The position numbers and the translations under genes were made by a program. From Escherichia phage vB_EcoM_SYGD1, in the sequence record MW883059: a stretch of 64,000 bases of DNA. The stretch is one strand, 5' to 3'. Numbering within the stretch: the first letter of the stretch is position 1; each line of letters opens with the position of its first letter. Shown one piece after another: positions 8,894-58,959 of this stretch. Under the pieces are notes generated by a model. The model was not told the DNA's origin. It did no database searches and saw only the letters and a program-made list of their open reading frames with translations.

Positions 8894-10518
<1,625 letters not shown>

Positions 10519-39371: not shown

Positions 39372-39382
39372 TTTATAAAACC

Positions 39383-39412
39383 GTTTACTTTTAGATGGGG
39401 TAGTGATACTAT
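39383..39412 (+). promoter_or_regulatory. T4-type early promoter cassette
   Basis: GTTTAC at 39383, -10 gtgatactat inside stem GGGTA...TACCC. Confidence 0.6.
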
Positions 39413-39440
39413 TACCCTATCAACTACTGAGGAGAATAAA

Positions 39441-39626
39441 ATGAAACGTTGTGAATTAATTCGAAATGTTGCTATTGCAATTTCTGCTTCCGCTTTTAGT
39501 TTTTCAATGTTTGTTGGATTTATATGCGGATTATTAACTACAGCAGAAAATGTGTTTTCACTTGTAGTAGCATTTTTAATTGGTTTAATCGCTATCGTTA
39601 TGGATAAAATTTCTAAAGGTGAATAG
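39441..39626 (+). CDS. small two-helix membrane protein
   Basis: ORF track 61 aa; two hydrophobic segments; SD gaggag. Confidence 0.5.
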   Translation: MKRCELIRNVAIAISASAFSFSMFVGFICGLLTTAENVFSLVVAFLIGLIAIVMDKISKGE

Positions 39627-50518: not shown

Positions 50519-50852
50519 AATTTTGGTTTTATGTATAGGATTAATTTCATTTTCTGCGTTAGCAAATACATCATATACTGAAATTAGAGAGTATGTAAAC
50601 CGTACTGCCGCGGATTATTGCGGGAAAAATAAAGCATGCCAAGCTGAATTTGCGCAGAAATTAATATATGCATATAAAGACGGAGAAAGAGATAAATCAA
50701 GCAGATACAAGAACGATACTTTATTAAAACGATATGCTAAAAAGTGGAATACCTTAGAATGTTCAGTTGCGGAGGAGAAAGATAAAGCCGCTTGTCATTC
50801 AATGGTTGACCGTTTAGTAGATTCTTATAATCGAGGATTGAGTACTAAATGA
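50511..50852 (+). CDS. secreted Cys-containing hypothetical protein
   Basis: ORF track 113 aa; signal peptide MTKILVLCIGLISFSALA; four Cys. Confidence 0.45.
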   Translation: MTKILVLCIGLISFSALANTSYTEIREYVNRTAADYCGKNKACQAEFAQKLIYAYKDGERDKSSRYKNDTLLKRYAKKWNTLECSVAEEKDKAACHSMVDRLVDSYNRGLSTK

Positions 50853-51316
50853 TTGTAAAATATATCAAGGGCGATATTGTCGCCCTTTTCACTGAAGGTA
50901 AAAATATTGCGCATGGATGCAATTGTTTTCATACGATGAAAGCTGGAGTCGCAGGTCAATTAACCAAAGCTTTCCCTAAAATTTTGGAAGCTGATAAATT
51001 ACAGACTGAATGGGGTGATGTAACTAAACTCGGTTCTTACTCAGTCTATGAAAAATACTTTAGGACTCATAAAGCGTATTGCTTCAACCTTTATACTCAA
51101 TTTCAACCAGGGCCAAATTTTGAATATTCCGCTTTAATGAATTGTATGTTAGAATTAAATGAGTTTGGTGAAAATAAACTGATTAAACCTACAATCTATA
51201 TGCCTAGGATTGGTGCAGGCATAGGTAAAGGGAACTGGGATATTATTGAGGGGATTTTAGATACATATTCCTCTAAATTAGAAATTGTGATTGTTGATTG
51301 GGAACCATTATTATGA
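50849..51316 (+). CDS. macro-like domain protein (possible ADP-ribose binding/processing)
   Basis: ORF track 155 aa; GDI...AHGCNCFHTMKAGVAGQL and PRIGAGIGKGNW resemble the two macrodomain glycine-rich motifs. Confidence 0.5.
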   Translation: MIVKYIKGDIVALFTEGKNIAHGCNCFHTMKAGVAGQLTKAFPKILEADKLQTEWGDVTKLGSYSVYEKYFRTHKAYCFNLYTQFQPGPNFEYSALMNCMLELNEFGENKLIKPTIYMPRIGAGIGKGNWDIIEGILDTYSSKLEIVIVDWEPLL

Positions 51317-51525
51317 ATATACATTATCCACATCCATATGACCCAAAGAATAAGGCAGTAATTATTCGTCAATGGGAACGCATTTGCCGTACTAAATGTC
51401 CAATTAATAGTCCACATGATGTAGATAAAGACTACATTGGAACATTCGTTGAATATACCTTTATTGATAAGAAAGGTCGTAAACAGCATGTAGAAGAATA
51501 CTGCTTAAAGGTTACATGGTTATGA
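51313..51525 (+). CDS. small hypothetical protein
   Basis: ORF track 51298 (TTG); ATG at 51313 overlapping previous stop. Confidence 0.4.
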   Translation: MNIHYPHPYDPKNKAVIIRQWERICRTKCPINSPHDVDKDYIGTFVEYTFIDKKGRKQHVEEYCLKVTWL

Positions 51526-51728
51526 GCCAAACTAGTATTCTTAAAAATGCCCATTGTGAAAAGTGTAAATGGCCAGTTGTTTTTGCTTTATGCAACGATG
51601 AAATGGCTTGTGATTTCGATTATTGGTGCTATTGTTCTAATAAAGGATGCATCAATCATAAAGGTGAAGGATTTTATTCGGGATTTTATCCTTATCCAGA
51701 TTTCGTTAAAGAAGGTAAACCGAAATGA
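51516..51728 (+). CDS. small Cys-rich protein (probable zinc-binding)
   Basis: ORF track 70 aa; seven Cys including CEKC and CYC. Confidence 0.4.
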   Translation: MVMSQTSILKNAHCEKCKWPVVFALCNDEMACDFDYWCYCSNKGCINHKGEGFYSGFYPYPDFVKEGKPK

Positions 51729-51898
51729 ATAGTTCTGAGTTACAATATGAAGTGTCACGTGAACTTGATAATTTAATTGAACTCGCTGCTAATAAAGGTT
51801 TTGCCATTGGAATTGGCCAAAAAGATACTGATCATTTAACTATGGAAATATTTAAGCAAAAGCGAATTATTTTAAAACTTCTGGAAATTAATATATGA
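51725..51898 (+). CDS. small hypothetical protein (57 aa)
   Basis: not in ORF track; ATGA overlaps at both ends with neighbouring genes. Confidence 0.3.
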   Translation: MNSSELQYEVSRELDNLIELAANKGFAIGIGQKDTDHLTMEIFKQKRIILKLLEINI

Positions 51899-52080
51899 GC
51901 CTAAGCAAAGAACAAAAAGACAGACTCTTTTCTCTTATCCACGAAGTTATGGATAAAAATAGTGAATTGGAAAAAGTTTGTAATGAATGCGGTCCTTTTA
52001 GCGCAAACGAGTACGAAGAACTTTCTAAAGAATTCGATAATAAAGAACAAGAACTCATTGATTATATAAATTCCTTATGA
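51895..52080 (+). CDS. small helical protein, paralog family member
   Basis: ORF track 61 aa; N-terminal MSLSKEQKDRLFSLI, C-terminal LIDYINSL. Confidence 0.45.
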   Translation: MSLSKEQKDRLFSLIHEVMDKNSELEKVCNECGPFSANEYEELSKEFDNKEQELIDYINSL

Positions 52081-52265
52081 TTACTCGCGAACAAAAGAAC
52101 GAAATATTATTTTTAGTTGGTGAAATTATTAGTTTAGAAAAGGATTTGTCTTTTGAAATATCTTCTGAATATGGAGATGCCGAAACATATTACGAATTAG
52201 TAAAATCTATCGATAAAGCTGAAAATGATTTAAAAACATATTTAGAAAATTTAACTAAGGATTAA
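52077..52265 (+). CDS. small helical protein, paralog family member
   Basis: ORF track 62 aa; MITREQKNEILFLV ... LKTYLENL. Confidence 0.45.
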   Translation: MITREQKNEILFLVGEIISLEKDLSFEISSEYGDAETYYELVKSIDKAENDLKTYLENLTKD

Positions 52266-52266
52266 A

Positions 52267-52848
52267 ATGGCGAGTTTAATTTTTACTTATGCAGCAATGA
52301 ATGCTGGAAAATCTGCTTCTCTTTTGACTGCTGCACATAATTATAAAGAACGTGGAATGAGTGTATTAGTTCTTAAGCCTGCTATTGATACTCGCGATTC
52401 TGTCTGCGAAGTCGTTTCTCGCATTGGAATTAAGCAGGAAGCAAATATTATTACAGATGATATGGATATTTTCGAGTTCTATAAATGGGCTGAAGCACAA
52501 AAAGATATTCATTGCGTATTTGTAGATGAAGCCCAGTTTTTAAAAACTGAACAGGTGCATCAATTGAGCCGAATTGTTGATACATATAATGTTCCTGTTA
52601 TGGCTTATGGATTAAGGACTGATTTCGCTGGAAAATTGTTTGAAGGTTCTAAAGAACTTTTGGCGATTGCAGATAAACTTATTGAACTAAAGGCAGTTTG
52701 TCATTGTAGTAAAAAAGCTATTATGACAGCTCGATTAATGGAAGATGGAACACCCGTTAAAGAAGGTAATCAAATCTGTATTGGTGATGAAATTTATGTT
52801 TCTTTGTGTAGAAAACATTGGAATGAATTAACTAAAAAGCTTGGTTAG
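52267..52848 (+). CDS. tk: thymidine kinase
   Basis: ORF track 193 aa; P-loop AAMNAGKS, Walker B FVDEAQF, C-terminal Cys zinc ribbon. Confidence 0.9.
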   Translation: MASLIFTYAAMNAGKSASLLTAAHNYKERGMSVLVLKPAIDTRDSVCEVVSRIGIKQEANIITDDMDIFEFYKWAEAQKDIHCVFVDEAQFLKTEQVHQLSRIVDTYNVPVMAYGLRTDFAGKLFEGSKELLAIADKLIELKAVCHCSKKAIMTARLMEDGTPVKEGNQICIGDEIYVSLCRKHWNELTKKLG

Positions 52849-52890
52849 TGCAAAAGTTATAAATAGGTTTATCTAACTAAAGGGGTATAT

Positions 52891-53103
52891 ATGCTACAAT
52901 TAACTGAAAAGCAACTTCGCAATCTTACCGTTCTTCAATTAGATGAAATTCGTAGGGAAGTTGGAAATATCATTTCAGCTTTGCGTCGAGAAGTATCACT
53001 CAACCAATCTCCGGCAGACTATACTAGATTGCGAAATTTTGAAAAATACCTTGATAAAGTTAAGGCCGTGCATCGGCATAAAGTAAATACAGGGCAAAAA
53101 TGA
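52891..53103 (+). CDS. small hypothetical protein (T4 rI.1 position)
   Basis: ORF track 70 aa; SD aagggg. Confidence 0.45.
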
Positions 53104-53115
53104 TAGGAGGCCTTT

Positions 53116-53409
53116 ATGGCCTTAAAAGCAACGGCACTATTTGCCATGCTAGGATTGTCATTTGTTTTATCTCCATCGATTGAAGCGAATGTCGATCCTC
53201 ATTTTGATAAATTTATGGAATCTGGTATTAGGCACGTTTATATGCTTTTTGAAAATAAAAGCGTAGAATCGTCTGAACAATTCTATAGTTTTATGAGAAC
53301 GACCTATAAAAATGACCCGTGCTCTTCTGATTTTGAATGTATAGAACGAGGCGCGGAGATGGCACAATCATACGCTAGAATTATGAACATTAAATTGGAG
53401 ACTGAATGA
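53116..53409 (+). CDS. rI: lysis inhibition regulator rI (membrane-anchored)
   Basis: ORF track 97 aa, same length as T4 RI; N-terminal signal-anchor; position next to tk. Confidence 0.7.
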   Translation: MALKATALFAMLGLSFVLSPSIEANVDPHFDKFMESGIRHVYMLFENKSVESSEQFYSFMRTTYKNDPCSSDFECIERGAEMAQSYARIMNIKLETE

Positions 53410-53792
53410 AATTCAGCGACTTTTCACAAAGTGGAAAACCTTCAAAGGCAGATGAATACTTAGGTTTATTAATGGCTGCACAAGCTTATTTTCATTCTGC
53501 ACATTTTGAAACTAAAAGTTATGCTAGACACAAAGCATACGATTTTATTTTCTCCGAGTTGCCAGATTTGATTGATAAATTTGGTGAGCAATATTTGGGG
53601 TATTCTGGTAGAAAATACACACCTTCAATTCCAGATGCTAGTAAACTTCCTACCGACACAATTAAAATGATTGATCGCATACTAGACCAATCTAACAGCA
53701 TTTATAAAGAAATGCCTCCAGCCATTCAAAGCACGATAGATGATATTACTGGGATGTTTTACCAGAGTAAATATCTTCTTTCCCTCGAATAA
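53406..53792 (+). CDS. hypothetical protein (T4 rI.-1 position)
   Basis: ORF track 128 aa. Confidence 0.5.
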
Positions 53793-53796
53793 CATT

Positions 53797-53820
53797 AGTC
53801 TCCTTCGGGAGACTTTTTTC
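53797..53820 (+). terminator. Intrinsic terminator
   Basis: AGTCTCC-TTCG-GGAGACT followed by tttttt. Confidence 0.7.
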
Positions 53821-53829
53821 ATTTTACTG

Positions 53830-53859
53830 GTTTACTTTCCATTTGAGCTGTGATACTAT
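53830..53859 (+). promoter_or_regulatory. T4-type early promoter cassette
   Basis: GTTTAC at 53830, -10 tgtgatactat. Confidence 0.6.
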
Positions 53860-53887
53860 ACAACCATCGGATAAAGAGGAGAACATC

Positions 53888-54064
53888 ATGAAAATTGAAG
53901 CACTTAATCGATATGTCATCATTAATGGTGATTTTTTCGTCGACATGGATGAAGTCACTAGTGAAGAACTTGTAGAACTTCTTAAGGAACATTATGATAT
54001 GTGTGATGAAGTTGCAACTCACATGGCGTGTGCAATATTCTCTCTTTCATATGTGGTGGAATAA
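53888..54064 (+). CDS. small hypothetical protein (58 aa)
   Basis: ORF track 53843 would start inside the promoter; ATG at 53888 follows SD gaggag. Confidence 0.4.
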
Positions 54065-54267
54065 TGATTAGTATCGAACAAGCGGATAAAATTAAGGAAT
54101 TAGTAGCTTTAATTCGTAAAGCAGACGAGGAACTTAGTGACTTTGCTTGGTTTTCGTCAGGCATTGCAAATAAAGGTATTGAAGAATTTGAAGCTAAAGT
54201 TGATAATGCTGTAGAAGCTTTAGATATGTTTCTTGATGAAATTATCGATCATAATACGAGAGTTTAA
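54064..54267 (+). CDS. small helical protein, paralog family member
   Basis: ORF track 54028; ATG at 54064; [14 protein letters not shown] ... LDMFLDEII. Confidence 0.45.
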   Translation: MISIEQADKIKELVALIRKADEELSDFAWFSSGIANKGIEEFEAKVDNAVEALDMFLDEIIDHNTRV

Positions 54268-54269
54268 GT

Positions 54270-54464
54270 ATGCTGACACACGAACAGTTTGAAAAAATCA
54301 TTAAATTAGTACGTGATGTTGAAATAGATTCATATCAATTAGCAGTTGAGCATTGTGAAGGATATTCATACGACGGTATAGAAGCAGCTAAAAGAGATTT
54401 GGATAAATCCAAAGCTAAGTTAGTTCAATATCTTGAAATGATTAGGTGGAATAATGAAAACTGA
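54270..54464 (+). CDS. small helical protein, paralog family member
   Basis: ORF track 64 aa; MLTHEQFEKIIKLV ... LVQYLEMI. Confidence 0.45.
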   Translation: MLTHEQFEKIIKLVRDVEIDSYQLAVEHCEGYSYDGIEAAKRDLDKSKAKLVQYLEMIRWNNEN

Positions 54465-54627
54465 AAAGCAGATGTTTTTAATGAAGCTAATTGAAGAATA
54501 CGCTAATGCAGTTTCTGACTATGAGTATTCTTCTCGTGAAAGAGGTACAGCTTTCGCAAAGGAAGAAATGAAAATTATGGTTGATGCTCACACAAAGCTT
54601 CAGAATTTTATTGAAAACGTCATTTAA
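54454..54627 (+). CDS. small helical protein, paralog family member (57 aa)
   Basis: not in ORF track; ATG after SD ggtgga; MKTEKQMFLMKLIEEY ... LQNFIENVI. Confidence 0.35.
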   Translation: MKTEKQMFLMKLIEEYANAVSDYEYSSRERGTAFAKEEMKIMVDAHTKLQNFIENVI

Positions 54628-54629
54628 CA

Positions 54630-54659
54630 GTTTACAAGTTGGCAAGGTTATGGTATAGT
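54630..54659 (+). promoter_or_regulatory. T4-type early promoter cassette
   Basis: GTTTAC at 54630, -10 tggtatagt. Confidence 0.55.
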
Positions 54660-54687
54660 AATCTTGTCAACTGTCAAGGAGAAGAGA

Positions 54688-54792
54688 ATGAAAATTTTGT
54701 TTGTTGTGTATGTGATGATTCAATATAATTACCCAATGTTTACTTATAATCTGGTGAACAACATTATTGATATTATTCAAAGGAGCATGTAA
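54688..54792 (+). CDS. 34-codon hydrophobic small ORF
   Basis: not in ORF track; strong SD aaggag 7 nt upstream; stop overlaps next start (TAATG); MKILFVVYVMIQYNYPMFTYNLVNNIIDIIQRSM. Confidence 0.25.
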   Translation: MKILFVVYVMIQYNYPMFTYNLVNNIIDIIQRSM

Positions 54793-54977
54793 TGACAAGT
54801 GAGCAGGCTTTTAAATTAAGAGAATTAATTGAGATGTATAGTAAAGCTGTTCATACATCAACAGTTATTGATGAATCAGCTTTCTCCGGATATGCTAACA
54901 AGATTAAATACAAAACTCTTATGGAAGAAGCTAAAGTAAATCTTGATTCTTATATTGAAACTTTAATTGGTGAATAA
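54792..54977 (+). CDS. small helical protein, paralog family member
   Basis: ORF track 61 aa; MTSEQAFKLRELIEMY ... LDSYIETLI. Confidence 0.45.
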   Translation: MTSEQAFKLRELIEMYSKAVHTSTVIDESAFSGYANKIKYKTLMEEAKVNLDSYIETLIGE

Positions 54978-54978
54978 C

Positions 54979-55245
54979 ATGGGCTTTCCTAAATTAGAAG
55001 TAGGCGATTTAGTCTTAACAAAATTGTGGAATGATGCTCAATCAGTAGAAATCTGTCAATATCGTGGAGCAACAGGTAATTTGATGTACACGATTTATAA
55101 CCCAGAAATTTTGTTAGAGTGTCATTTGGAACGCTTTATAAAAGACACTGATAGTATGCCTTATAGTGTATCGATTGTGCGTAAATCTGACACAAAGGAA
55201 TACTCTAAAATTTTAGAAAAAATTCATGCCAATAAAAAGGATTAA
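54979..55245 (+). CDS. small hypothetical protein
   Basis: ORF track 54967 (TTG); ATG at 54979. Confidence 0.4.
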   Translation: MGFPKLEVGDLVLTKLWNDAQSVEICQYRGATGNLMYTIYNPEILLECHLERFIKDTDSMPYSVSIVRKSDTKEYSKILEKIHANKKD

Positions 55246-55246
55246 T

Positions 55247-55777
55247 ATGAAACGATTAGTATTAGAAGTTAGTTCACTTTTTGGTGAATTGGCTATAGAA
55301 AAAGTAAATAATATGTATCGTTTGACGCAAGAAGACGATATGCTATATTTTACGCCTAGCGAAATTATTCATTTAACCCAAATTGAAAAACCTTACACTG
55401 ATAAAATTGTAAGCATTAATGATGAGCATAAAATTCATTTTTATTCTTTATGCCCAGGATTTAATATTGAAAGCGAGTCAATATGCTTATCAATTAATAA
55501 TTGGGATAATTTTATAACTAAAATTAAATATTTTTATTATTCTAACGAAAGAAAACATGGTTTAAAATGGTTTAAAAATTGCAATGCTATTATTACTAAC
55601 GCTTGTAATCAAAATTATGAAACTGTTTTAAATGTATCAAAGTGTTACGAAGAAGGAGATGTCTTAACTATTCGTCAATCGGTAAATGATGTTAATGTTG
55701 TTGTATTAAACAAAGAAGAAGCTGTTTTATTAAAGACTTATCTTGATTCTGTCATTCCAACTATGATTTCAAAGTGA
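55247..55777 (+). CDS. hypothetical protein, tandem paralog A
   Basis: ORF track 55226; ATG at 55247 after SD aaagga; shares GFNIE and C-terminal YL..V.P.M with the next ORF. Confidence 0.45.
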   Translation: MKRLVLEVSSLFGELAIEKVNNMYRLTQEDDMLYFTPSEIIHLTQIEKPYTDKIVSINDEHKIHFYSLCPGFNIESESICLSINNWDNFITKIKYFYYSNERKHGLKWFKNCNAIITNACNQNYETVLNVSKCYEEGDVLTIRQSVNDVNVVVLNKEEAVLLKTYLDSVIPTMISK

Positions 55778-55783
55778 GGAAAT

Positions 55784-56305
55784 ATGTTTATTTCGAGTGA
55801 AAGTGGTTTAATTCGTGTTGAATTTAAAAATGACATCTTCCTTATTCAAGGAGATGATATTATTAAAATGAGTTATGACGAAATCAAGAAAATTTGCCAT
55901 GCTCTTGAAAGTCATGGAAAAGTGAACGCTGTTATTGATATTGGCGATTTATGGGTGACACTTTATGAAGTATCCGAAGGATTTAACATTGAAGATGAAA
56001 ATAACATCTTAGCTATTGATAAAAGAAGTGATTTGTTTGATGTATTAAAAGTTTATGAACATTCAAACGGTGGAAGAAAAGCTGTATTGATTTATCAAAA
56101 ACCGCATTCATGCGGAACTGCTTCAATCATTTCAAATATTGAAGATGAAACTGATACTTATATGTGTGTTTTAAAAGCTGGTGGTGACCGTCATCCGGAT
56201 TTTATTTCTATTCGTCAAAACAATGGAGAAATTTCATTATCAAAATCAGAAGCTGAAGCTATGATTAAGTATTTAACAACTGTTACACCTTCAATGAAAG
56301 GATAA
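55784..56305 (+). CDS. hypothetical protein, tandem paralog B
   Basis: ORF track 173 aa; SD gagga. Confidence 0.5.
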   Translation: MFISSESGLIRVEFKNDIFLIQGDDIIKMSYDEIKKICHALESHGKVNAVIDIGDLWVTLYEVSEGFNIEDENNILAIDKRSDLFDVLKVYEHSNGGRKAVLIYQKPHSCGTASIISNIEDETDTYMCVLKAGGDRHPDFISIRQNNGEISLSKSEAEAMIKYLTTVTPSMKG

Positions 56306-56307
56306 TT

Positions 56308-56769
56308 ATGATTATTAATGAAAGCTCTTGGCACTATAAATTATTCAAAATGTTTAATGATGAATGGAAACGACCTAAGACACTGTGCGCGTATTTTTGG
56401 TCTATTGTTATTCCTACATTTTTCGTTTCTTTTTTCGGATGTACTATACTCGCAGGTCTAACTATCATCTGCGCAGAAATCATGCAGAAATGGCTTATTT
56501 TTGGTAGTTTATGGACTCTTATTCCATCAGCATTTATACTTGCCATTTTGCTTGTTTTACTTATTATTGGTTCATTTGTTATTCCTGCACAACTGCATGA
56601 AAAATATAAAGATTATAAATGGAAAAAGGATTATACTTTACATGTAGAAAATATTGATAGGGCGTATAAAGGTTTACCTCCTATTAAACCCAAGAAATCT
56701 ATTATCGTCGAATTTTTAAAAGCTCGTAAAGCTAAAGTATGTCCTGTTATTGAATATAAGGCTGAATGA
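56308..56769 (+). CDS. integral membrane protein (3-4 predicted helices)
   Basis: ORF track 153 aa; long hydrophobic stretches. Confidence 0.5.
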   Translation: MIINESSWHYKLFKMFNDEWKRPKTLCAYFWSIVIPTFFVSFFGCTILAGLTIICAEIMQKWLIFGSLWTLIPSAFILAILLVLLIIGSFVIPAQLHEKYKDYKWKKDYTLHVENIDRAYKGLPPIKPKKSIIVEFLKARKAKVCPVIEYKAE

Positions 56770-57779
56770 TGAAAACAGTAATGAAAAGCTATTTTGGTAG
56801 TCATCTTTATGGAACTTCTACCCCAGAATCTGATGTAGATTTTAAAGAAATTTTTGTTCCTCCTGCTCGTGATATTCTTATCGGAAACGTCAAAGAGCAC
56901 ATGAGTAAAAACACCAACAACACATCATCTAAAAACACTAAAGATGATATTGACCACGAATTGTATAGTCTTAAGTATTTCTTTAAATTAGCAGCAGATG
57001 GTGAAACCGTAGCATTGGATATGCTTCACACTCCACCTGAACTAGTGGTTAAATCTGATTTGCCTGATGTGTGGAAGTTTATTCAAGACAACCGTTCTCG
57101 TTTTTATACGACTAACATGAAATCCTATTTAGGATATGTCCGTAAGCAAGCTTCTAAATACGGTGTCAAGGGTTCTCGTTTGGCTGCATTACGTGATGTA
57201 TTGAAAGTAGTTAATCAAATCCCTGAGCAATGGGTTGATTACCAAGAAGACGGTTCCATTAAGCAGCGTCGTACTAAAGTTGAAGATATTAAGCATCGTC
57301 TTCCAAAAAACGAATTCTGTGAATGGGTGTTCCATGATCATGAGAAAACAGGCCCACAAACGTTCTATACTGTATTGGGTCGTAAATATCAGACAACGCT
57401 TTCTCTTATTGAGCTTAAGCAGTCACTGAACAAATTAAATGCTGAATATGGTGAACGCGCTCGTAAGGCCGAAGCCAATGAAGGCATCGACTGGAAAGCT
57501 CTGAGCCATGCTTGTCGTGGTGGACTTCAACTATTGGAAATTTACAAAACTGGTGACTTGGTTTATCCACTTCAAGACGCTCCATTTATTCTCGACGTGA
57601 AGTTGGGTAAACATCCATTTAAAACAGTTCAAGAGTTTTTGGAAGATGTGGTCGATCAAGTAGAAGCAGCATCTACTGAAGCTTCTAAGAACGGTATGCA
57701 GCAAAAAGTAGACATGAGTTTCTGGGATGACTTCCTTGAGAAGGTGTATCTCGAAAACCATCGAAGTTATTATAAATGA
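56766..57779 (+). CDS. protein with N-terminal Pol-beta-type nucleotidyltransferase motif
   Basis: ORF track 337 aa; FGSHLYGTSTPESDVDF fits the minimal NTase signature G[SG]x9-13 DxD close to the N-terminus; large helical C-terminal region. Confidence 0.55.
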   Translation: MMKTVMKSYFGSHLYGTSTPESDVDFKEIFVPPARDILIGNVKEHMSKNTNNTSSKNTKDDIDHELYSLKYFFKLAADGETVALDMLHTPPELVVKSDLPDVWKFIQDNRSRFYTTNMKSYLGYVRKQASKYGVKGSRLAALRDVLKVVNQIPEQWVDYQEDGSIKQRRTKVEDIKHRLPKNEFCEWVFHDHEKTGPQTFYTVLGRKYQTTLSLIELKQSLNKLNAEYGERARKAEANEGIDWKALSHACRGGLQLLEIYKTGDLVYPLQDAPFILDVKLGKHPFKTVQEFLEDVVDQVEAASTEASKNGMQQKVDMSFWDDFLEKVYLENHRSYYK

Positions 57780-57780
57780 T

Positions 57781-57808
57781 AGGGAGCCTTCGGGCTCCTT
57801 TTTTTTAT
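57781..57808 (+). terminator. Intrinsic terminator
   Basis: AGGGAGCC-TTCG-GGCTCCT followed by ttttttttattt. Confidence 0.7.
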
Positions 57809-57830
57809 TTCAAAAATTTTTCACAAAGTT

Positions 57831-57860
57831 GTTTACTTCTATCATAAAGCATATTATAAT
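57831..57860 (+). promoter_or_regulatory. T4-type early promoter cassette
   Basis: UP-like caaaaatttttcacaaagtt, GTTTAC at 57831, 18 bp spacer, TATAAT at 57855. Confidence 0.65.
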
Positions 57861-57892
57861 ATATTTGTAGTTAATTAATCGTTCTTTAAAAA

Positions 57893-58393
57893 ATGAAGAG
57901 AAACACAATGCATATTTTAATGAAATGCCTTGGCAACAAAATTAATGATTTTAATCATAAGCGTGTTAATGATTACATTAAAGACACACTTGAGATTAAA
58001 GACGTACTTTTTAGAGGACTTACAATAGAGGAAGTACTATCTCATAAGTTTGAAGTTAATAGGAGAATCAAATTTAAAAGAATAACTTCCTTTAGTAGTG
58101 AATCTCATATAGCTGAAACATTTGCAGCAGAACGCTATATGACTAATGTTTTAATAGTGTTAAAAAATGCAAACGTTTTTGACTATTCAACTGCTATGAT
58201 TGAAATTTTAGAAAATTTAATCGCAATTGAAGAATCTGGCCAGATTGATGATGATAAGCTTAATAAGCTTTATGATAATCTTTCTATGGTGGATTATGAA
58301 AGAGAGTTTTTATTGCCAATTAATTCGGAGTTAACAGTTAAAAACATATATTTTGATAGCAAAAAGAGCATGCATATAATAGAAATGGAATAA
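57893..58393 (+). CDS. hypothetical protein
   Basis: ORF track 166 aa; bracketed by promoter and terminator copies. Confidence 0.5.
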   Translation: MKRNTMHILMKCLGNKINDFNHKRVNDYIKDTLEIKDVLFRGLTIEEVLSHKFEVNRRIKFKRITSFSSESHIAETFAAERYMTNVLIVLKNANVFDYSTAMIEILENLIAIEESGQIDDDKLNKLYDNLSMVDYEREFLLPINSELTVKNIYFDSKKSMHIIEME

Positions 58394-58401
58394 AAGCATA
58401 A

Positions 58402-58428
58402 AGGGGCCCTAGAGGTCCCCTTTTTTAT
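58402..58428 (+). terminator. Intrinsic terminator
   Basis: GGGGCCC-TAGA-GGTCCCC (one mismatch) followed by ttttttattt. Confidence 0.65.
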
Positions 58429-58450
58429 TTCAAAAATTTTTCACAAAGTG

Positions 58451-58480
58451 GTTTACAAGCATAAAGCTTTATGGTACTAT
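58451..58480 (+). promoter_or_regulatory. T4-type early promoter cassette
   Basis: UP-like caaaaatttttcacaaagtg, GTTTAC at 58451, -10 tggtactat. Confidence 0.6.
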
Positions 58481-58516
58481 ACAACTATCAAAACAAACAC
58501 TTAAACGGAAAACAAA

Positions 58517-58666
58517 ATGAAAATTACACCAATTGAAGTAAAAAAGTTGATTGATACAGAAGAAATTTCAGAGTGTTTTGAAAGTTTCTTAGAAGACGCA
58601 ACTGAAGATAACGCGGTTTATCTCGCCCAGAAAATTATCGAAACTTATTTGGAGAAGAATCAATGA
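58517..58666 (+). CDS. small helical protein (49 aa), possible paralog family member
   Basis: not in ORF track; weak SD; ends ...IIETYLEKNQ; ATGA overlap with next gene. Confidence 0.3.
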   Translation: MKITPIEVKKLIDTEEISECFESFLEDATEDNAVYLAQKIIETYLEKNQ

Positions 58667-58926
58667 CAGTTTACGTAGATGTTTTAATGAATCATGGATG
58701 GAAACTTCGCGGTCATCCAACTAAAAATTGTCATATGTTCACTGATGGAGATATTGAAGAGCTTCATAAAATGGCAGAAGCAATAGGAATGAAACGTTCT
58801 TGGTTTCAAGATAAACGCATTAAACATTATGACTTACACGCGCGCCGCCGCCAAAAAGCTGTAGAACTTGGAGCTGTAGAAGTATCTCGTCGCGAAGCAG
58901 TAAAAATTTGGCAAACATTAAAATAA
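58663..58926 (+). CDS. small conserved protein, DUF4031-like
   Basis: ORF track 87 aa; pattern MTVYVD...RG....CHMF.D...ELH..A..IG..R.WFQ....HYDL resembles the DUF4031 family as I recall it. Confidence 0.45.
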   Translation: MTVYVDVLMNHGWKLRGHPTKNCHMFTDGDIEELHKMAEAIGMKRSWFQDKRIKHYDLHARRRQKAVELGAVEVSRREAVKIWQTLK

Positions 58927-58929
58927 ATT

Positions 58930-58959
58930 GTTTACAGTAGGGTAGTAGTGTGATACTAT
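58930..58959 (+). promoter_or_regulatory. T4-type early promoter cassette
   Basis: GTTTAC at 58930, -10 tgtgatactat inside stem GGGTA...TACCC; same cassette as at the internal-protein-like locus. Confidence 0.6.

What the first reader, a model, noticed from the sequence alone, without database searches (positions are those of the whole stretch)
51895..58666. Family of six to seven small paralogous helical proteins, partly in tandem
ORFs 51895, 52077, 54064, 54270, 54454, 54792 and probably 58517 (49 to 67 aa) share an N-terminal pattern M-x-[ST]-x-EQ-x2-K-[IL]-x2-L-[IV], a central acidic/aromatic patch and a C-terminal L-x2-[YF]-[LI]-E-x-[LI]. Most are translationally coupled to their neighbours. 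Keeping so many diverged copies of a roughly 60-aa protein suggests a diversifying binder family, for example one targeting variable host proteins.
Basis: seen in the sequence. Interest (0 to 1): 0.5.

Follow-up and report, generated by a model that had tools for sequence, protein, structure and literature searches.

The report
Small helical-hairpin gene family in T4-like phage
Six of the seven flagged small genes are a real, already catalogued family (Pfam DUF7438) of acidic two-helix proteins that T4-like phages make early in infection; they can be lost without harm in the laboratory and their function is still unknown.

Summary
The window is a Tequatrovirus (T4-like) genome segment. Six ORFs (51895, 52077, 54064, 54270, 54454, 54792) are true paralogues. 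All match Pfam DUF7438 (E 1e-14 to 1e-18), and each is recovered by a leave-one-out HMM ahead of every unrelated window ORF and 1000 shuffles. They are orthologues of T4 Tk.2, Tk.1, MobD.4, MobD.3 and MobD.2a, plus a sixth type that T4 lacks. The seventh ORF (58517) is unrelated.

AlphaFold2 models MobD.3 as an antiparallel two-helix hairpin (pLDDT 93). The conserved columns are the heptad core and a helix cap; the surface and loop differ between paralogues. All members are acidic.

The duplications are old: paralogues are 20-33% identical and share no DNA repeats, and five types have closer counterparts (42-62% identical) outside Tequatrovirus. Orthologues are mostly under purifying selection, so this is not a fast-diversifying family. 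It does show gain and loss: Tk.1 and the sixth type each occur in about a third of Tequatroviruses, and there are allele dimorphism, loop indels and chimeras.

In T4 the orthologues are early-expressed, four are seen as protein, and all are non-essential. Neighbouring genes are anti-defence factors.

My best inference, untested, is that these are stoichiometric binders of host or defence proteins. The family is already known and of modest interest.

The parts
51895..52080 (+). DUF7438 paralogue 1 (61 aa). Orthologue of T4 Tk.2, T4-type allele. Its start overlaps the stop of ORF 51725 (ATGA).
   Evidence: Pfam PF24219 E 1.4e-18. PHROG 653. 98% score ratio to T4 Tk.2. The T4-type allele is in 168 phage records and a roughly 54%-identical allele is in most others.
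52077..52265 (+). DUF7438 paralogue 2 (62 aa). Orthologue of T4 Tk.1. ATGA overlap with paralogue 1. Its stop lies 1 nt before the tk start (52267).
   Evidence: Pfam E 7.1e-15. 99% score ratio to T4 Tk.1. Found at 80% identity or more in 168 phage records, the same number as the T4-type Tk.2 allele. Absent from ACG-C40, G28, ESh28 and G9062.
54064..54267 (+). DUF7438 paralogue 3 (67 aa). Orthologue of T4 MobD.4, long-loop allele. TAATG overlap with MobD.5.
   Evidence: Pfam E 2e-16. T4, G28 and ESh28 carry a 60-aa allele with a shorter loop. 504 phage records.
54270..54464 (+). DUF7438 paralogue 4 (64 aa). Orthologue of T4 MobD.3.
   Evidence: Pfam E 2.8e-17. AlphaFold2 hairpin with helices 4-29 and 34-63, pLDDT 93. 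13 of 13 Tequatrovirus loci, pN/pS 0.14. 585 phage records.
54454..54627 (+). DUF7438 paralogue 5 (57 aa). Full-length orthologue of T4 MobD.2a. 11-nt overlap with paralogue 4.
   Evidence: Pfam E 2.4e-16. PHROG 2758. Split by a frameshift in the T4 reference record but annotated as 174 nt in another T4 stock. 491 phage records.
54792..54977 (+). DUF7438 paralogue 6 (61 aa). No counterpart in T4. TAATG overlap with the MobD.2 homologue (54688-54792).
   Evidence: Pfam E 1.5e-14. PHROG 4859, labelled 'helicase loader' without support. 7 of 13 Tequatrovirus loci. 192 phage records.
53830..53859 (+). T4-type early promoter (GTTTAC, 17-nt spacer, TGaTACTAT) ahead of the unit MobD.5, MobD.4, MobD.3, MobD.2a.
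   Evidence: Read directly from the sequence. A mobD.5 promoter transcript, not sensitive to RegB, is reported for T4 in PMC1702504.
53797..53814 (+). Intrinsic-terminator-like hairpin after rI.-1. It marks the start of the MobD transcription unit.
   Evidence: Terminator scan. Annotated as a terminator at the same place in G28 and G9062.
54631..54659 (+). Second early-promoter-like site (TTTACA, 17-nt spacer, TG-TATAGT) ahead of MobD.2 and paralogue 6.
   Evidence: Promoter scan, 10 of 12 matches with an extended -10 TG. Sequence.

Best explanation
The six ORFs are the local complement of one old gene family, Pfam DUF7438. They correspond to T4 Tk.2, Tk.1, MobD.4, MobD.3 and MobD.2a, plus a sixth type that T4 lacks.

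Each encodes a 57-67 aa acidic protein that folds as an antiparallel two-helix hairpin. Small alanines sit at core positions, giving ROP-like or 'Alacoil'-like packing.

The genes lie in two clusters in the accessory early region between vs/tk.4 and nrdC.11. They are transcribed from T4-type early promoters as polycistronic units. Their overlapping starts and stops suggest translational coupling.

Shown here or in published T4 data:
- family membership;
- the predicted fold;
- early RNA for the T4 orthologues, and detected protein for four of them;
- individual dispensability in the laboratory;
- ancient duplication with purifying selection on most copies;
- gain-and-loss turnover.

Inferred, not shown: the proteins act stoichiometrically as small binders or inhibitors of host proteins, plausibly host-defence proteins, early in infection. 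On this reading the conserved core only builds the hairpin. The paralogue-specific surface and loop would set the target. The hairpins probably pair into four-helix bundles, as homo- or hetero-dimers.
For: Family and fold:
- All six match PF24219 above threshold.
- Leave-one-out HMM and shuffle controls support each member.
- AlphaFold2 gives a hairpin at pLDDT 93 and pTM 0.77.
- The best Foldseek neighbours are hairpins that assemble into helical bundles (FrmR/CsoR, SSV1 D-63, designed hairpin homo-oligomers), though none reaches E <= 0.001.
- Conserved columns are the a/d/e heptad positions, Ala at columns 21 and 52, and the N-cap T-x-E-Q. The other columns carry about 3 bits of entropy.
- Net charge is -2 to -9 here, with a family median of -8.

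Expression and dispensability in T4:
- MobD.3 and MobD.4 are early RNA and early protein. Tk.1 and Tk.2 are early RNA and middle protein (PMC9697503 supplement).
- A mobD.5 promoter transcript is reported (PMC1702504).
- All five T4 orthologues tolerate transposon insertions (bioRxiv 10.1101/2025.11.20.689424 supplement).
- Knock-down of each gives no fitness effect (PMC11879866 supplement).
- nrdC.11 to mobD.3 is deletable (PMC9825161).

Evolution:
- Paralogues are 20-33% identical to each other. Five types have counterparts 42-62% identical in other phages; those located are Mosigvirus and Gaprivervirus.
- pN/pS is 0.08-0.28 for four copies.
- The paralogues share no DNA repeats.

Context:
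- tk.4, directly upstream, is the anti-DarTG2 macrodomain AdfM. nrdC.1 is an anti-Septu factor.
- The vs.4 homologue in the related metagenomic locus L023 carries the Acb2/Tad1 hairpin domain.
Against: - No partner, phenotype or toxicity is known for any member.
- The HIDEN-SEQ main text names none of them as a hit under the defence systems and hosts it tested. The one comparison I saw in its supplement gave q = 1 for all five.
- Structure and sequence searches give no functional analogue.
- Oligomerisation is untested. The natural two-domain fusion P0125 gave only a low-confidence model, pLDDT 69.
- A conserved core with a free surface is also what any small, weakly constrained helical protein would show.
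- Conserved synteny next to tk could instead point to a role inside the phage's own machinery.
Confidence: 0.45

Rival explanations
1. One reading: a family under ongoing diversifying (arms-race) selection, with copies kept because they track variable host proteins.
For: - Tk.2 exists as two alleles about 52-54% identical within one genus.
- MobD.4 has loop-length alleles.
- Tk.1 and the sixth type are each present in only about a third of Tequatrovirus records (against 501 tk records at 95% identity or more).
- The sixth type has pN/pS of about 1.
- The loop and surface are the variable parts.
Against: - Within each orthologous group the sequences are 92-100% identical.
- pN/pS is 0.08-0.28 for Tk.1, MobD.2a, MobD.3 and MobD.4.
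- The pN/pS near 1 for the sixth type rests on pair-summed counts of about 13 synonymous and 51 non-synonymous differences from 7 near-identical sequences.
- The alternative Tk.2 allele resembles the Gaprivervirus and Mosigvirus copy, which points to exchange of old alleles rather than rapid in-place change.
Confidence: 0.15
2. The proteins serve the phage's own machinery, for example as small adaptor or regulatory subunits for thymidine kinase, the dNTP-synthesis complex or another early phage enzyme, rather than targeting the host.
For: - One to three copies sit immediately upstream of tk, after the tk.4 macrodomain gene, in Tequatrovirus, Mosigvirus, Gaprivervirus, Jiaodavirus and an unclassified T4-like contig.
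- Tk.1 ends 1 nt before the tk start.
- Tk.1, Tk.2 and Tk share the same expression class in T4.
Against: - Four of the six copies lie in the separate MobD cluster, next to no enzyme gene.
- Karamvirus, Winklervirus, Krischvirus and Slopekvirus keep tk but have no detectable copy within 6 kb of it.
- A distant member sits in an unrelated 45-kb phage contig; no tk gene is called in the 12 kb around it that I fetched.
- tk itself is non-essential.
Confidence: 0.15
3. They are ROP-like four-helix-bundle proteins that bind RNA or DNA and tune gene expression or replication.
For: - Same size and predicted hairpin as ColE1 Rop, which is 63 aa (my own knowledge).
- Alanine at core positions.
- The y05I/MobD.1-like genes just downstream are named 'putative transcription factor' domains by Pfam.
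Against: - All members are acidic, with net charge -1 to -11, and no conserved basic patch is evident in the column profile. That makes direct nucleic-acid binding unlikely.
- No sequence or fold match to Rop or to any nucleic-acid-binding protein reached significance.
Confidence: 0.07
4. The similarity is chance among AT-rich short ORFs, or the ORFs are not genes.
For: The ORFs are short, the region is AT-rich (31-34% GC), and pairwise identity is only 20-33%.
Against: - Pfam E-values of 1e-14 to 1e-18.
- The leave-one-out HMM beats 1000 shuffles and every other window ORF.
- Purifying selection on most copies.
- Protein detected by mass spectrometry for four T4 orthologues.
- Hundreds of conserved orthologues in phage records.
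Confidence: 0.01

Closest known systems
Pfam DUF7438 (PF24219), PHROG 653/2758/4859: T4 Tk.1, Tk.2, MobD.2a, MobD.3 and MobD.4
   Same: Direct membership. Five window ORFs are 73-99% orthologues (score ratio) of the named T4 ORFs. The sixth matches the same Pfam model.
   Different: The window carries the maximum complement seen, six copies. It includes a type absent from T4 and a full-length MobD.2a, which is split by a frameshift in the T4 reference record. No function is attached to the family.
ColE1 Rop/Rom and other helical-hairpin proteins that dimerise into four-helix bundles (SSV1 D-63, CsoR/FrmR, designed hairpin oligomers)
   Same: About 60 residues, a predicted antiparallel two-helix hairpin, small residues in the core, and a wide hydrophobic stripe.
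   Different: There is no significant sequence or Foldseek match; the best E is 0.47. These proteins are acidic, whereas Rop binds RNA. The oligomeric state is unknown here.
Small early T4 proteins that inhibit host proteins (Dmd, Arn, AsiA, Stp) and anti-defence factors encoded nearby (Tk.4/AdfM, Vs.4/Acb2, NrdC.1)
   Same: Early expression, small size, dispensable in the laboratory, and encoded in the same accessory region. The list Dmd, Arn, AsiA and Stp comes from my own knowledge.
   Different: There is no homology to any of them, and no target or phenotype is known. Unlike those single-copy genes, this family has four to six paralogues per genome.

Membership tests
Pfam DUF7438 (PF24219) | Full-length match to the family HMM above the gathering score of 25 bits | tested here: met
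   Six ORFs score 54.5-67.4 bits and cover profile positions 1 to 56/57. ORF 58517 has no hit.
Pfam DUF7438 (PF24219) | Single-domain protein of about 55-70 aa made of two helices | tested here: met
   Lengths are 57-67 aa. The AlphaFold2 model of the 54270 product has helices 4-29 and 34-63 at pLDDT 93. BFVD neighbours are family members in other T4-like phages with TM 0.86-0.88. Only one paralogue was modelled.
Pfam DUF7438 (PF24219) | Seventh candidate (58517-58666) belongs to the family | tested here: not met
   No Pfam hit. HMM score 1.4 bits, with 206 of 500 shuffles at least as good. hhalign probability 1.8%. Assigned to PHROG 6888.
Rop-like four-helix-bundle dimers | Homodimer of two hairpins forming a four-helix bundle | not testable with these tools
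   Only single-chain prediction was available. The natural two-domain fusion P0125 gave a model too poor to judge, pLDDT 69 and pTM 0.44.
Rop-like four-helix-bundle dimers | Sequence or fold homology to Rop, and a surface suited to binding RNA | tested here: not met
   No PDB sequence hit below E 0.3. No Foldseek hit at E <= 0.001. Net charge is -2 to -9.
'Helicase loader' (label of PHROG 4859, copied into RefSeq for the 54792 orthologue) | Homology to a known helicase-loading protein such as T4 gp59 or DnaC-type loaders | tested here: not met
   At E <= 1, Pfam returns DUF7438 (E 1.5e-14) plus one sub-threshold chance hit (PF22744, E 0.11) for this ORF, and no helicase-loader family. NCBIfam gives nothing relevant. 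The ORF is 61 aa. The label looks like annotation carry-over.
'Molybdopterin-guanine dinucleotide biosynthesis protein MobD' (RefSeq label on MobD.4 and MobD.3 orthologues) | Homology to bacterial Mob proteins | tested here: not met
   No Pfam or NCBIfam match of that kind. The T4 gene name mobD refers to a homing endonuclease, so the label appears to be a name collision.
Phage anti-defence proteins | Loss of the gene sensitises the phage to a defined defence system | not testable with these tools
   Published T4 transposon screens name tk.4, nrdC.1 and others as hits, but none of tk.1, tk.2 or mobD.2a-4. Redundancy among paralogues was not addressed in those screens.

The most novel reading that the evidence does not exclude
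The DUF7438 hairpins could be a modular family of inhibitors of host immunity or host takeover. On this reading each paralogue, or each homo- or hetero-dimeric four-helix bundle formed by neighbouring, co-translated paralogues, neutralises a different host protein. Single-gene screens would miss them because the copies back each other up or because the relevant hosts were not tested.
Probability: 0.15. Interest if true: 0.7.

Novelty: already known. Interest (0 to 1): 0.3.

Why it matters
The family is small: 33 clusters at E <= 0.001 among 1.84 billion representative proteins. Even so, it is one of the more expanded families of small proteins of unknown function in the best-studied phage genus. 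Members are made early, four are detected as protein, and they sit among genes recently shown to be anti-defence factors. A combined deletion of all copies, or a partner screen, could cheaply give a function to five long-standing T4 ORFs. As it stands, the finding mainly re-identifies a catalogued domain of unknown function.

Tried and rejected
- ORF 58517 as a seventh member: rejected.
- rI.1 (52891), ORF 51725, MobD.5, MobD.2, ORF 51516 and Tk.3 as hidden members: none scored above shuffles. hhalign gave rI.1 a probability of 1.2%.
- The weak recurring hit at ORF 39372-39623: rejected, with hhalign probability 0.5% and a different PHROG.
- Functional analogy by structure: Foldseek against PDB gave no hit at E <= 0.001. 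BFVD returned only uncharacterised phage proteins.
- Functional analogy by sequence: the profile search against PDB sequences gave nothing below E 0.3, and NCBIfam gave nothing relevant.
- The search for related loci with the broad alignment failed because no stretch was conserved enough. With MobD.3 alone it returned only 5 loci.
- tblastn with the distant members P0131 and P0125 found one weak hit and no hit, respectively, in annotated phages.
- Modelling the natural two-domain protein P0125 as a proxy for dimerisation gave a low-confidence model.
- Literature searches for DUF7438, mobD.2a/.3/.4 and tk.2 found no functional study. The Miller 2003 T4 genome review was not held.
- DNA repeats between paralogues, which would indicate recent duplication or gene conversion: none found.
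Full report
**What the window is.** A megablast of 51500-59000 matches 704 phage records. Nearly all are Tequatrovirus (T4-like), and the best is Escherichia phage ACG-C40 at 96.5% identity. The window's + strand corresponds to the T4 minus strand. The local gene order is vs, tk.4, tk.3..., tk, rI.1, rI, rI.-1, mobD.5..., mobD.1, nrdC.11, nrdC.10.

**Checking the observation.**
- The seven ORFs exist at the stated coordinates.
- Six of them (51895, 52077, 54064, 54270, 54454, 54792) match Pfam PF24219 (DUF7438) end to end, with E 1.4e-18 to 1.5e-14 and 54-67 bits against a cut-off of 25.
- In PHROGs they fall into 653, 2758 and 4859, which cross-hit one another.
- As a test independent of curated models, I built HMMs from five members and searched for the sixth. 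The omitted member was always the top non-training hit among 1179 stop-to-stop ORFs of the window (E 8e-9 to 2e-3). It also beat all 1000 shuffles of itself.
- The seventh ORF, 58517-58666, fails every test. It has no Pfam hit. Its HMM score is no better than 206 of 500 shuffles. hhalign probability is 1.8%. It belongs to a different PHROG.
- No other member is detectable in the 64-kb window. rI.1, ORF 51725 and ORF 39441 were checked and rejected.

**Identity of the six.** By best match they are orthologues of the following T4 genes.

| Window ORF | T4 orthologue |
|---|---|
| 51895 | Tk.2 |
| 52077 | Tk.1 |
| 54064 | MobD.4 |
| 54270 | MobD.3 |
| 54454 | MobD.2a |
| 54792 | none in T4 |

- In the T4 reference record, mobD.2a is split by a frameshift into two pieces. 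Another T4 stock is annotated with a 174-nt gene.
- RefSeq labels such as 'molybdopterin-guanine dinucleotide biosynthesis protein MobD' and 'helicase loader' on these orthologues have no support in Pfam or NCBIfam.

**Structure and sequence properties.**
- AlphaFold2 with a 19-sequence alignment models the 54270 product as two antiparallel helices, 4-29 and 34-63, at pLDDT 93 and pTM 0.77.
- Foldseek against PDB gives no hit at E <= 0.001. The nearest shapes are hairpins that build helical bundles: FrmR/CsoR, SSV1 D-63 and designed hairpin homo-oligomers.
- BFVD returns family members from other T4-like phages, plus other uncharacterised phage hairpins.
- In a 26-sequence family alignment, the conserved columns are the heptad hydrophobic positions, alanines at two core positions, and the N-terminal T-x-E-Q, which looks like a helix cap. 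The remaining columns have about 3 bits of entropy.
- Every member is acidic. Net charge is -2 to -9 in the window, with a family median of -8.
- The second codon of five of the six genes begins with A. This fits the overlapping ATGA and TAATG junctions, so part of the N-terminal 'motif' may be a constraint at the DNA level.

**Evolution.**
- The six are 20-33% identical to each other and share no DNA repeats.
- An exhaustive profile search of 1.84 billion representative proteins finds only 33 clusters at E <= 0.001.
- Five of the six types have counterparts elsewhere that are 42-62% identical, against at most 34% to any other paralogue. The sixth type's best match of this kind is 44%. The duplications therefore probably predate the split of Tequatrovirus from Mosigvirus and Gaprivervirus, where such copies were located.
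- Within 6 kb of tk, copy numbers are as follows.

| Phage (genus) | Copies |
|---|---|
| This window (Tequatrovirus) | 6 |
| ACG-C40 (Tequatrovirus) | 5 |
| T4 reference | 4 intact plus the split mobD.2a |
| Mosigvirus | 3 |
| Gaprivervirus | 2 |
| Jiaodavirus | 1 |
| Karamvirus, Winklervirus, Krischvirus, Slopekvirus | 0 |

- A metagenomic T4-like contig has three tandem copies between tk.4 and tk.
- One distant member sits in an unrelated 45-kb phage contig, next to replication and nin-type genes.
- Record counts in the phage collection are below. About 501 records carry a tk at 95% identity or more, which I use as a rough count of Tequatroviruses.

| Paralogue | Records |
|---|---|
| Tk.2, T4-type allele (80% identity or more) | 168 |
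| Tk.2, under 60% identity (the alternative allele about 54% identical, plus copies in other genera) | 573 |
| Tk.1 (80% identity or more) | 168 |
| MobD.4 | 504 |
| MobD.3 | 585 |
| MobD.2a | 491 |
| Sixth type | 192 |

- A Tequatrovirus therefore has four near-universal copies and two optional ones. This window has both optional ones.
- Tk.2/Tk.1 chimeric ORFs in other phages (P0004, P0085) show unequal crossing-over between the tandem copies.
- Across 13 Tequatrovirus loci the orthologues are mostly 92-100% identical.
- Summed pairwise pN/pS values are below.

| Gene | pN/pS |
|---|---|
| MobD.2a | 0.08 |
| Tk.1 | 0.12 |
| MobD.3 | 0.14 |
| MobD.4 | 0.28 |
| Tk.2 (between two saturated alleles) | 0.45 |
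| Sixth type (very few substitutions) | 0.97 |
| tk (comparison) | 0.04 |
| rI (comparison) | 0.11 |

- This is gain-and-loss evolution of old, constrained genes. It is not ongoing rapid diversification.

**Expression and dispensability, from the T4 orthologues.**
- A terminator-like hairpin at 53797-53814 is followed by GTTTAC-N17-TGaTACTAT at 53830-53859. A second such site lies at 54631-54659. From my own knowledge, this resembles the T4 early-promoter consensus.
- A mobD.5 promoter transcript, insensitive to RegB, is reported for T4 (PMC1702504).
- In the time-resolved T4 omics data set, MobD.3 and MobD.4 are early RNA and early protein. Tk.1 and Tk.2 are early RNA and middle protein. MobD.2a has no protein record (PMC9697503 supplement).
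- All five T4 orthologues tolerate transposon insertions (10.1101/2025.11.20.689424 supplement).
- Knock-down of each gives no fitness effect (PMC11879866 supplement).
- nrdC.11 to mobD.3 can be deleted (PMC9825161).
- I found no paper that assigns a function.

**Context.** The surrounding early region holds known counter-defence genes.
- tk.4, whose orthologue here is the macrodomain ORF 50849-51316, is the anti-DarTG2 factor AdfM.
- nrdC.1 is an anti-Septu factor.
- The vs.4 homologue in the related locus L023 carries the Acb2/Tad1 hairpin domain.

**Interpretation.** The family, the predicted fold, early expression, dispensability and evolutionary pattern are shown. That these proteins work as stoichiometric binders of host or defence proteins is an inference, and so is the idea that they act as four-helix-bundle dimers. 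The inference rests on size, acidity, scaffold-versus-surface conservation, timing and neighbourhood. I give it about 0.45.

Rival readings are a role in the phage's own machinery linked to tk (0.15), an actively diversifying arms-race family (0.15), Rop-like nucleic-acid binding (0.07) and chance similarity (0.01).

**Verdict.** The finding is real for six ORFs, wrong for the seventh, and corresponds to an already catalogued family of unknown function. Interest is modest.

Noticed in passing
window 55226-55777 and 55784-56305 (+): Two adjacent paralogous genes (183 and 173 aa) both carry the Pfam T4_y05I_N and T4_y05I_C domains, described as MobD.1-like 'putative transcription factor' domains. 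T4 has a single mobD.1 at this place, so this is a second tandem paralogue pair in the same region.
   Followed up: partly
window 58517-58666 (+): The rejected seventh ORF is a conserved 49-aa gene of its own family (PHROG 6888). It lies between a 166-aa ORF annotated in ACG-C40 as a ModB-like ADP-ribosylase (57893-58393, no Pfam hit here) and a DUF4031 gene (58663-58926). The T4 record lists none of these three between nrdC.11 and nrdC.10.
   Followed up: partly
window 51516-51728 and 51725-51898 (+): Two small genes, a 'Phage_zn_bind' protein and a 57-aa ORF, lie between the tk.3 and tk.2 homologues. T4 lacks both, but ACG-C40, T6, G28, ESh28, JK23 and G9062 have them.
   Followed up: partly
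L002 (T4 NC_000866) locus 8997-9178, minus strand: In the T4 reference record, mobD.2a is split by a frameshift into two reading frames that together match the full 57-aa protein. A different T4 stock is annotated with a 174-nt gene, so this is either stock variation or a sequencing error.
   Followed up: partly
P0004 (Escherichia phage UFV-AREG1) and P0085: Some phages carry a single ORF whose N-terminal helix is Tk.2 and whose C-terminal half is Tk.1. This is the expected product of unequal crossing-over between the tandem paralogues.
   Followed up: partly
RefSeq annotations of L001, L002, L010 and L014: There are systematic mislabels on these small ORFs and their neighbours: 'molybdopterin-guanine dinucleotide biosynthesis protein MobD', 'helicase loader', 'kilA', 'starvation-inducible transcriptional regulator' (rI.-1) and 'thioredoxin' (nrdC.x). 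They appear to come from gene-name collisions or annotation carry-over.
   Followed up: partly
window 50849-51316 (+): This is the orthologue of the T4 tk.4 macrodomain gene. A 2025 preprint reports tk.4 as the anti-DarTG2 factor AdfM. It lies about 580 nt upstream of the first DUF7438 gene, separated from it by three small ORFs.
   Followed up: partly
window 58452-58480 and 58931-58959 (+); 57781-57800 and 58403-58419 (+): Two further T4-type early-promoter matches (TTTACA, 17-nt spacer, TG-TACTAT) and two strong terminator-like hairpins subdivide the nrdC.11 to nrdC.10 interval into short transcription units.
   Followed up: no
L021 6001-6180 (45-kb metagenomic contig): A single DUF7438 gene occurs outside T4-like phages. 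It lies downstream of an AAA_25 primase/helicase-type gene and among nin-like small ORFs, in a contig with Sf6/P22-type terminase genes.
   Followed up: no
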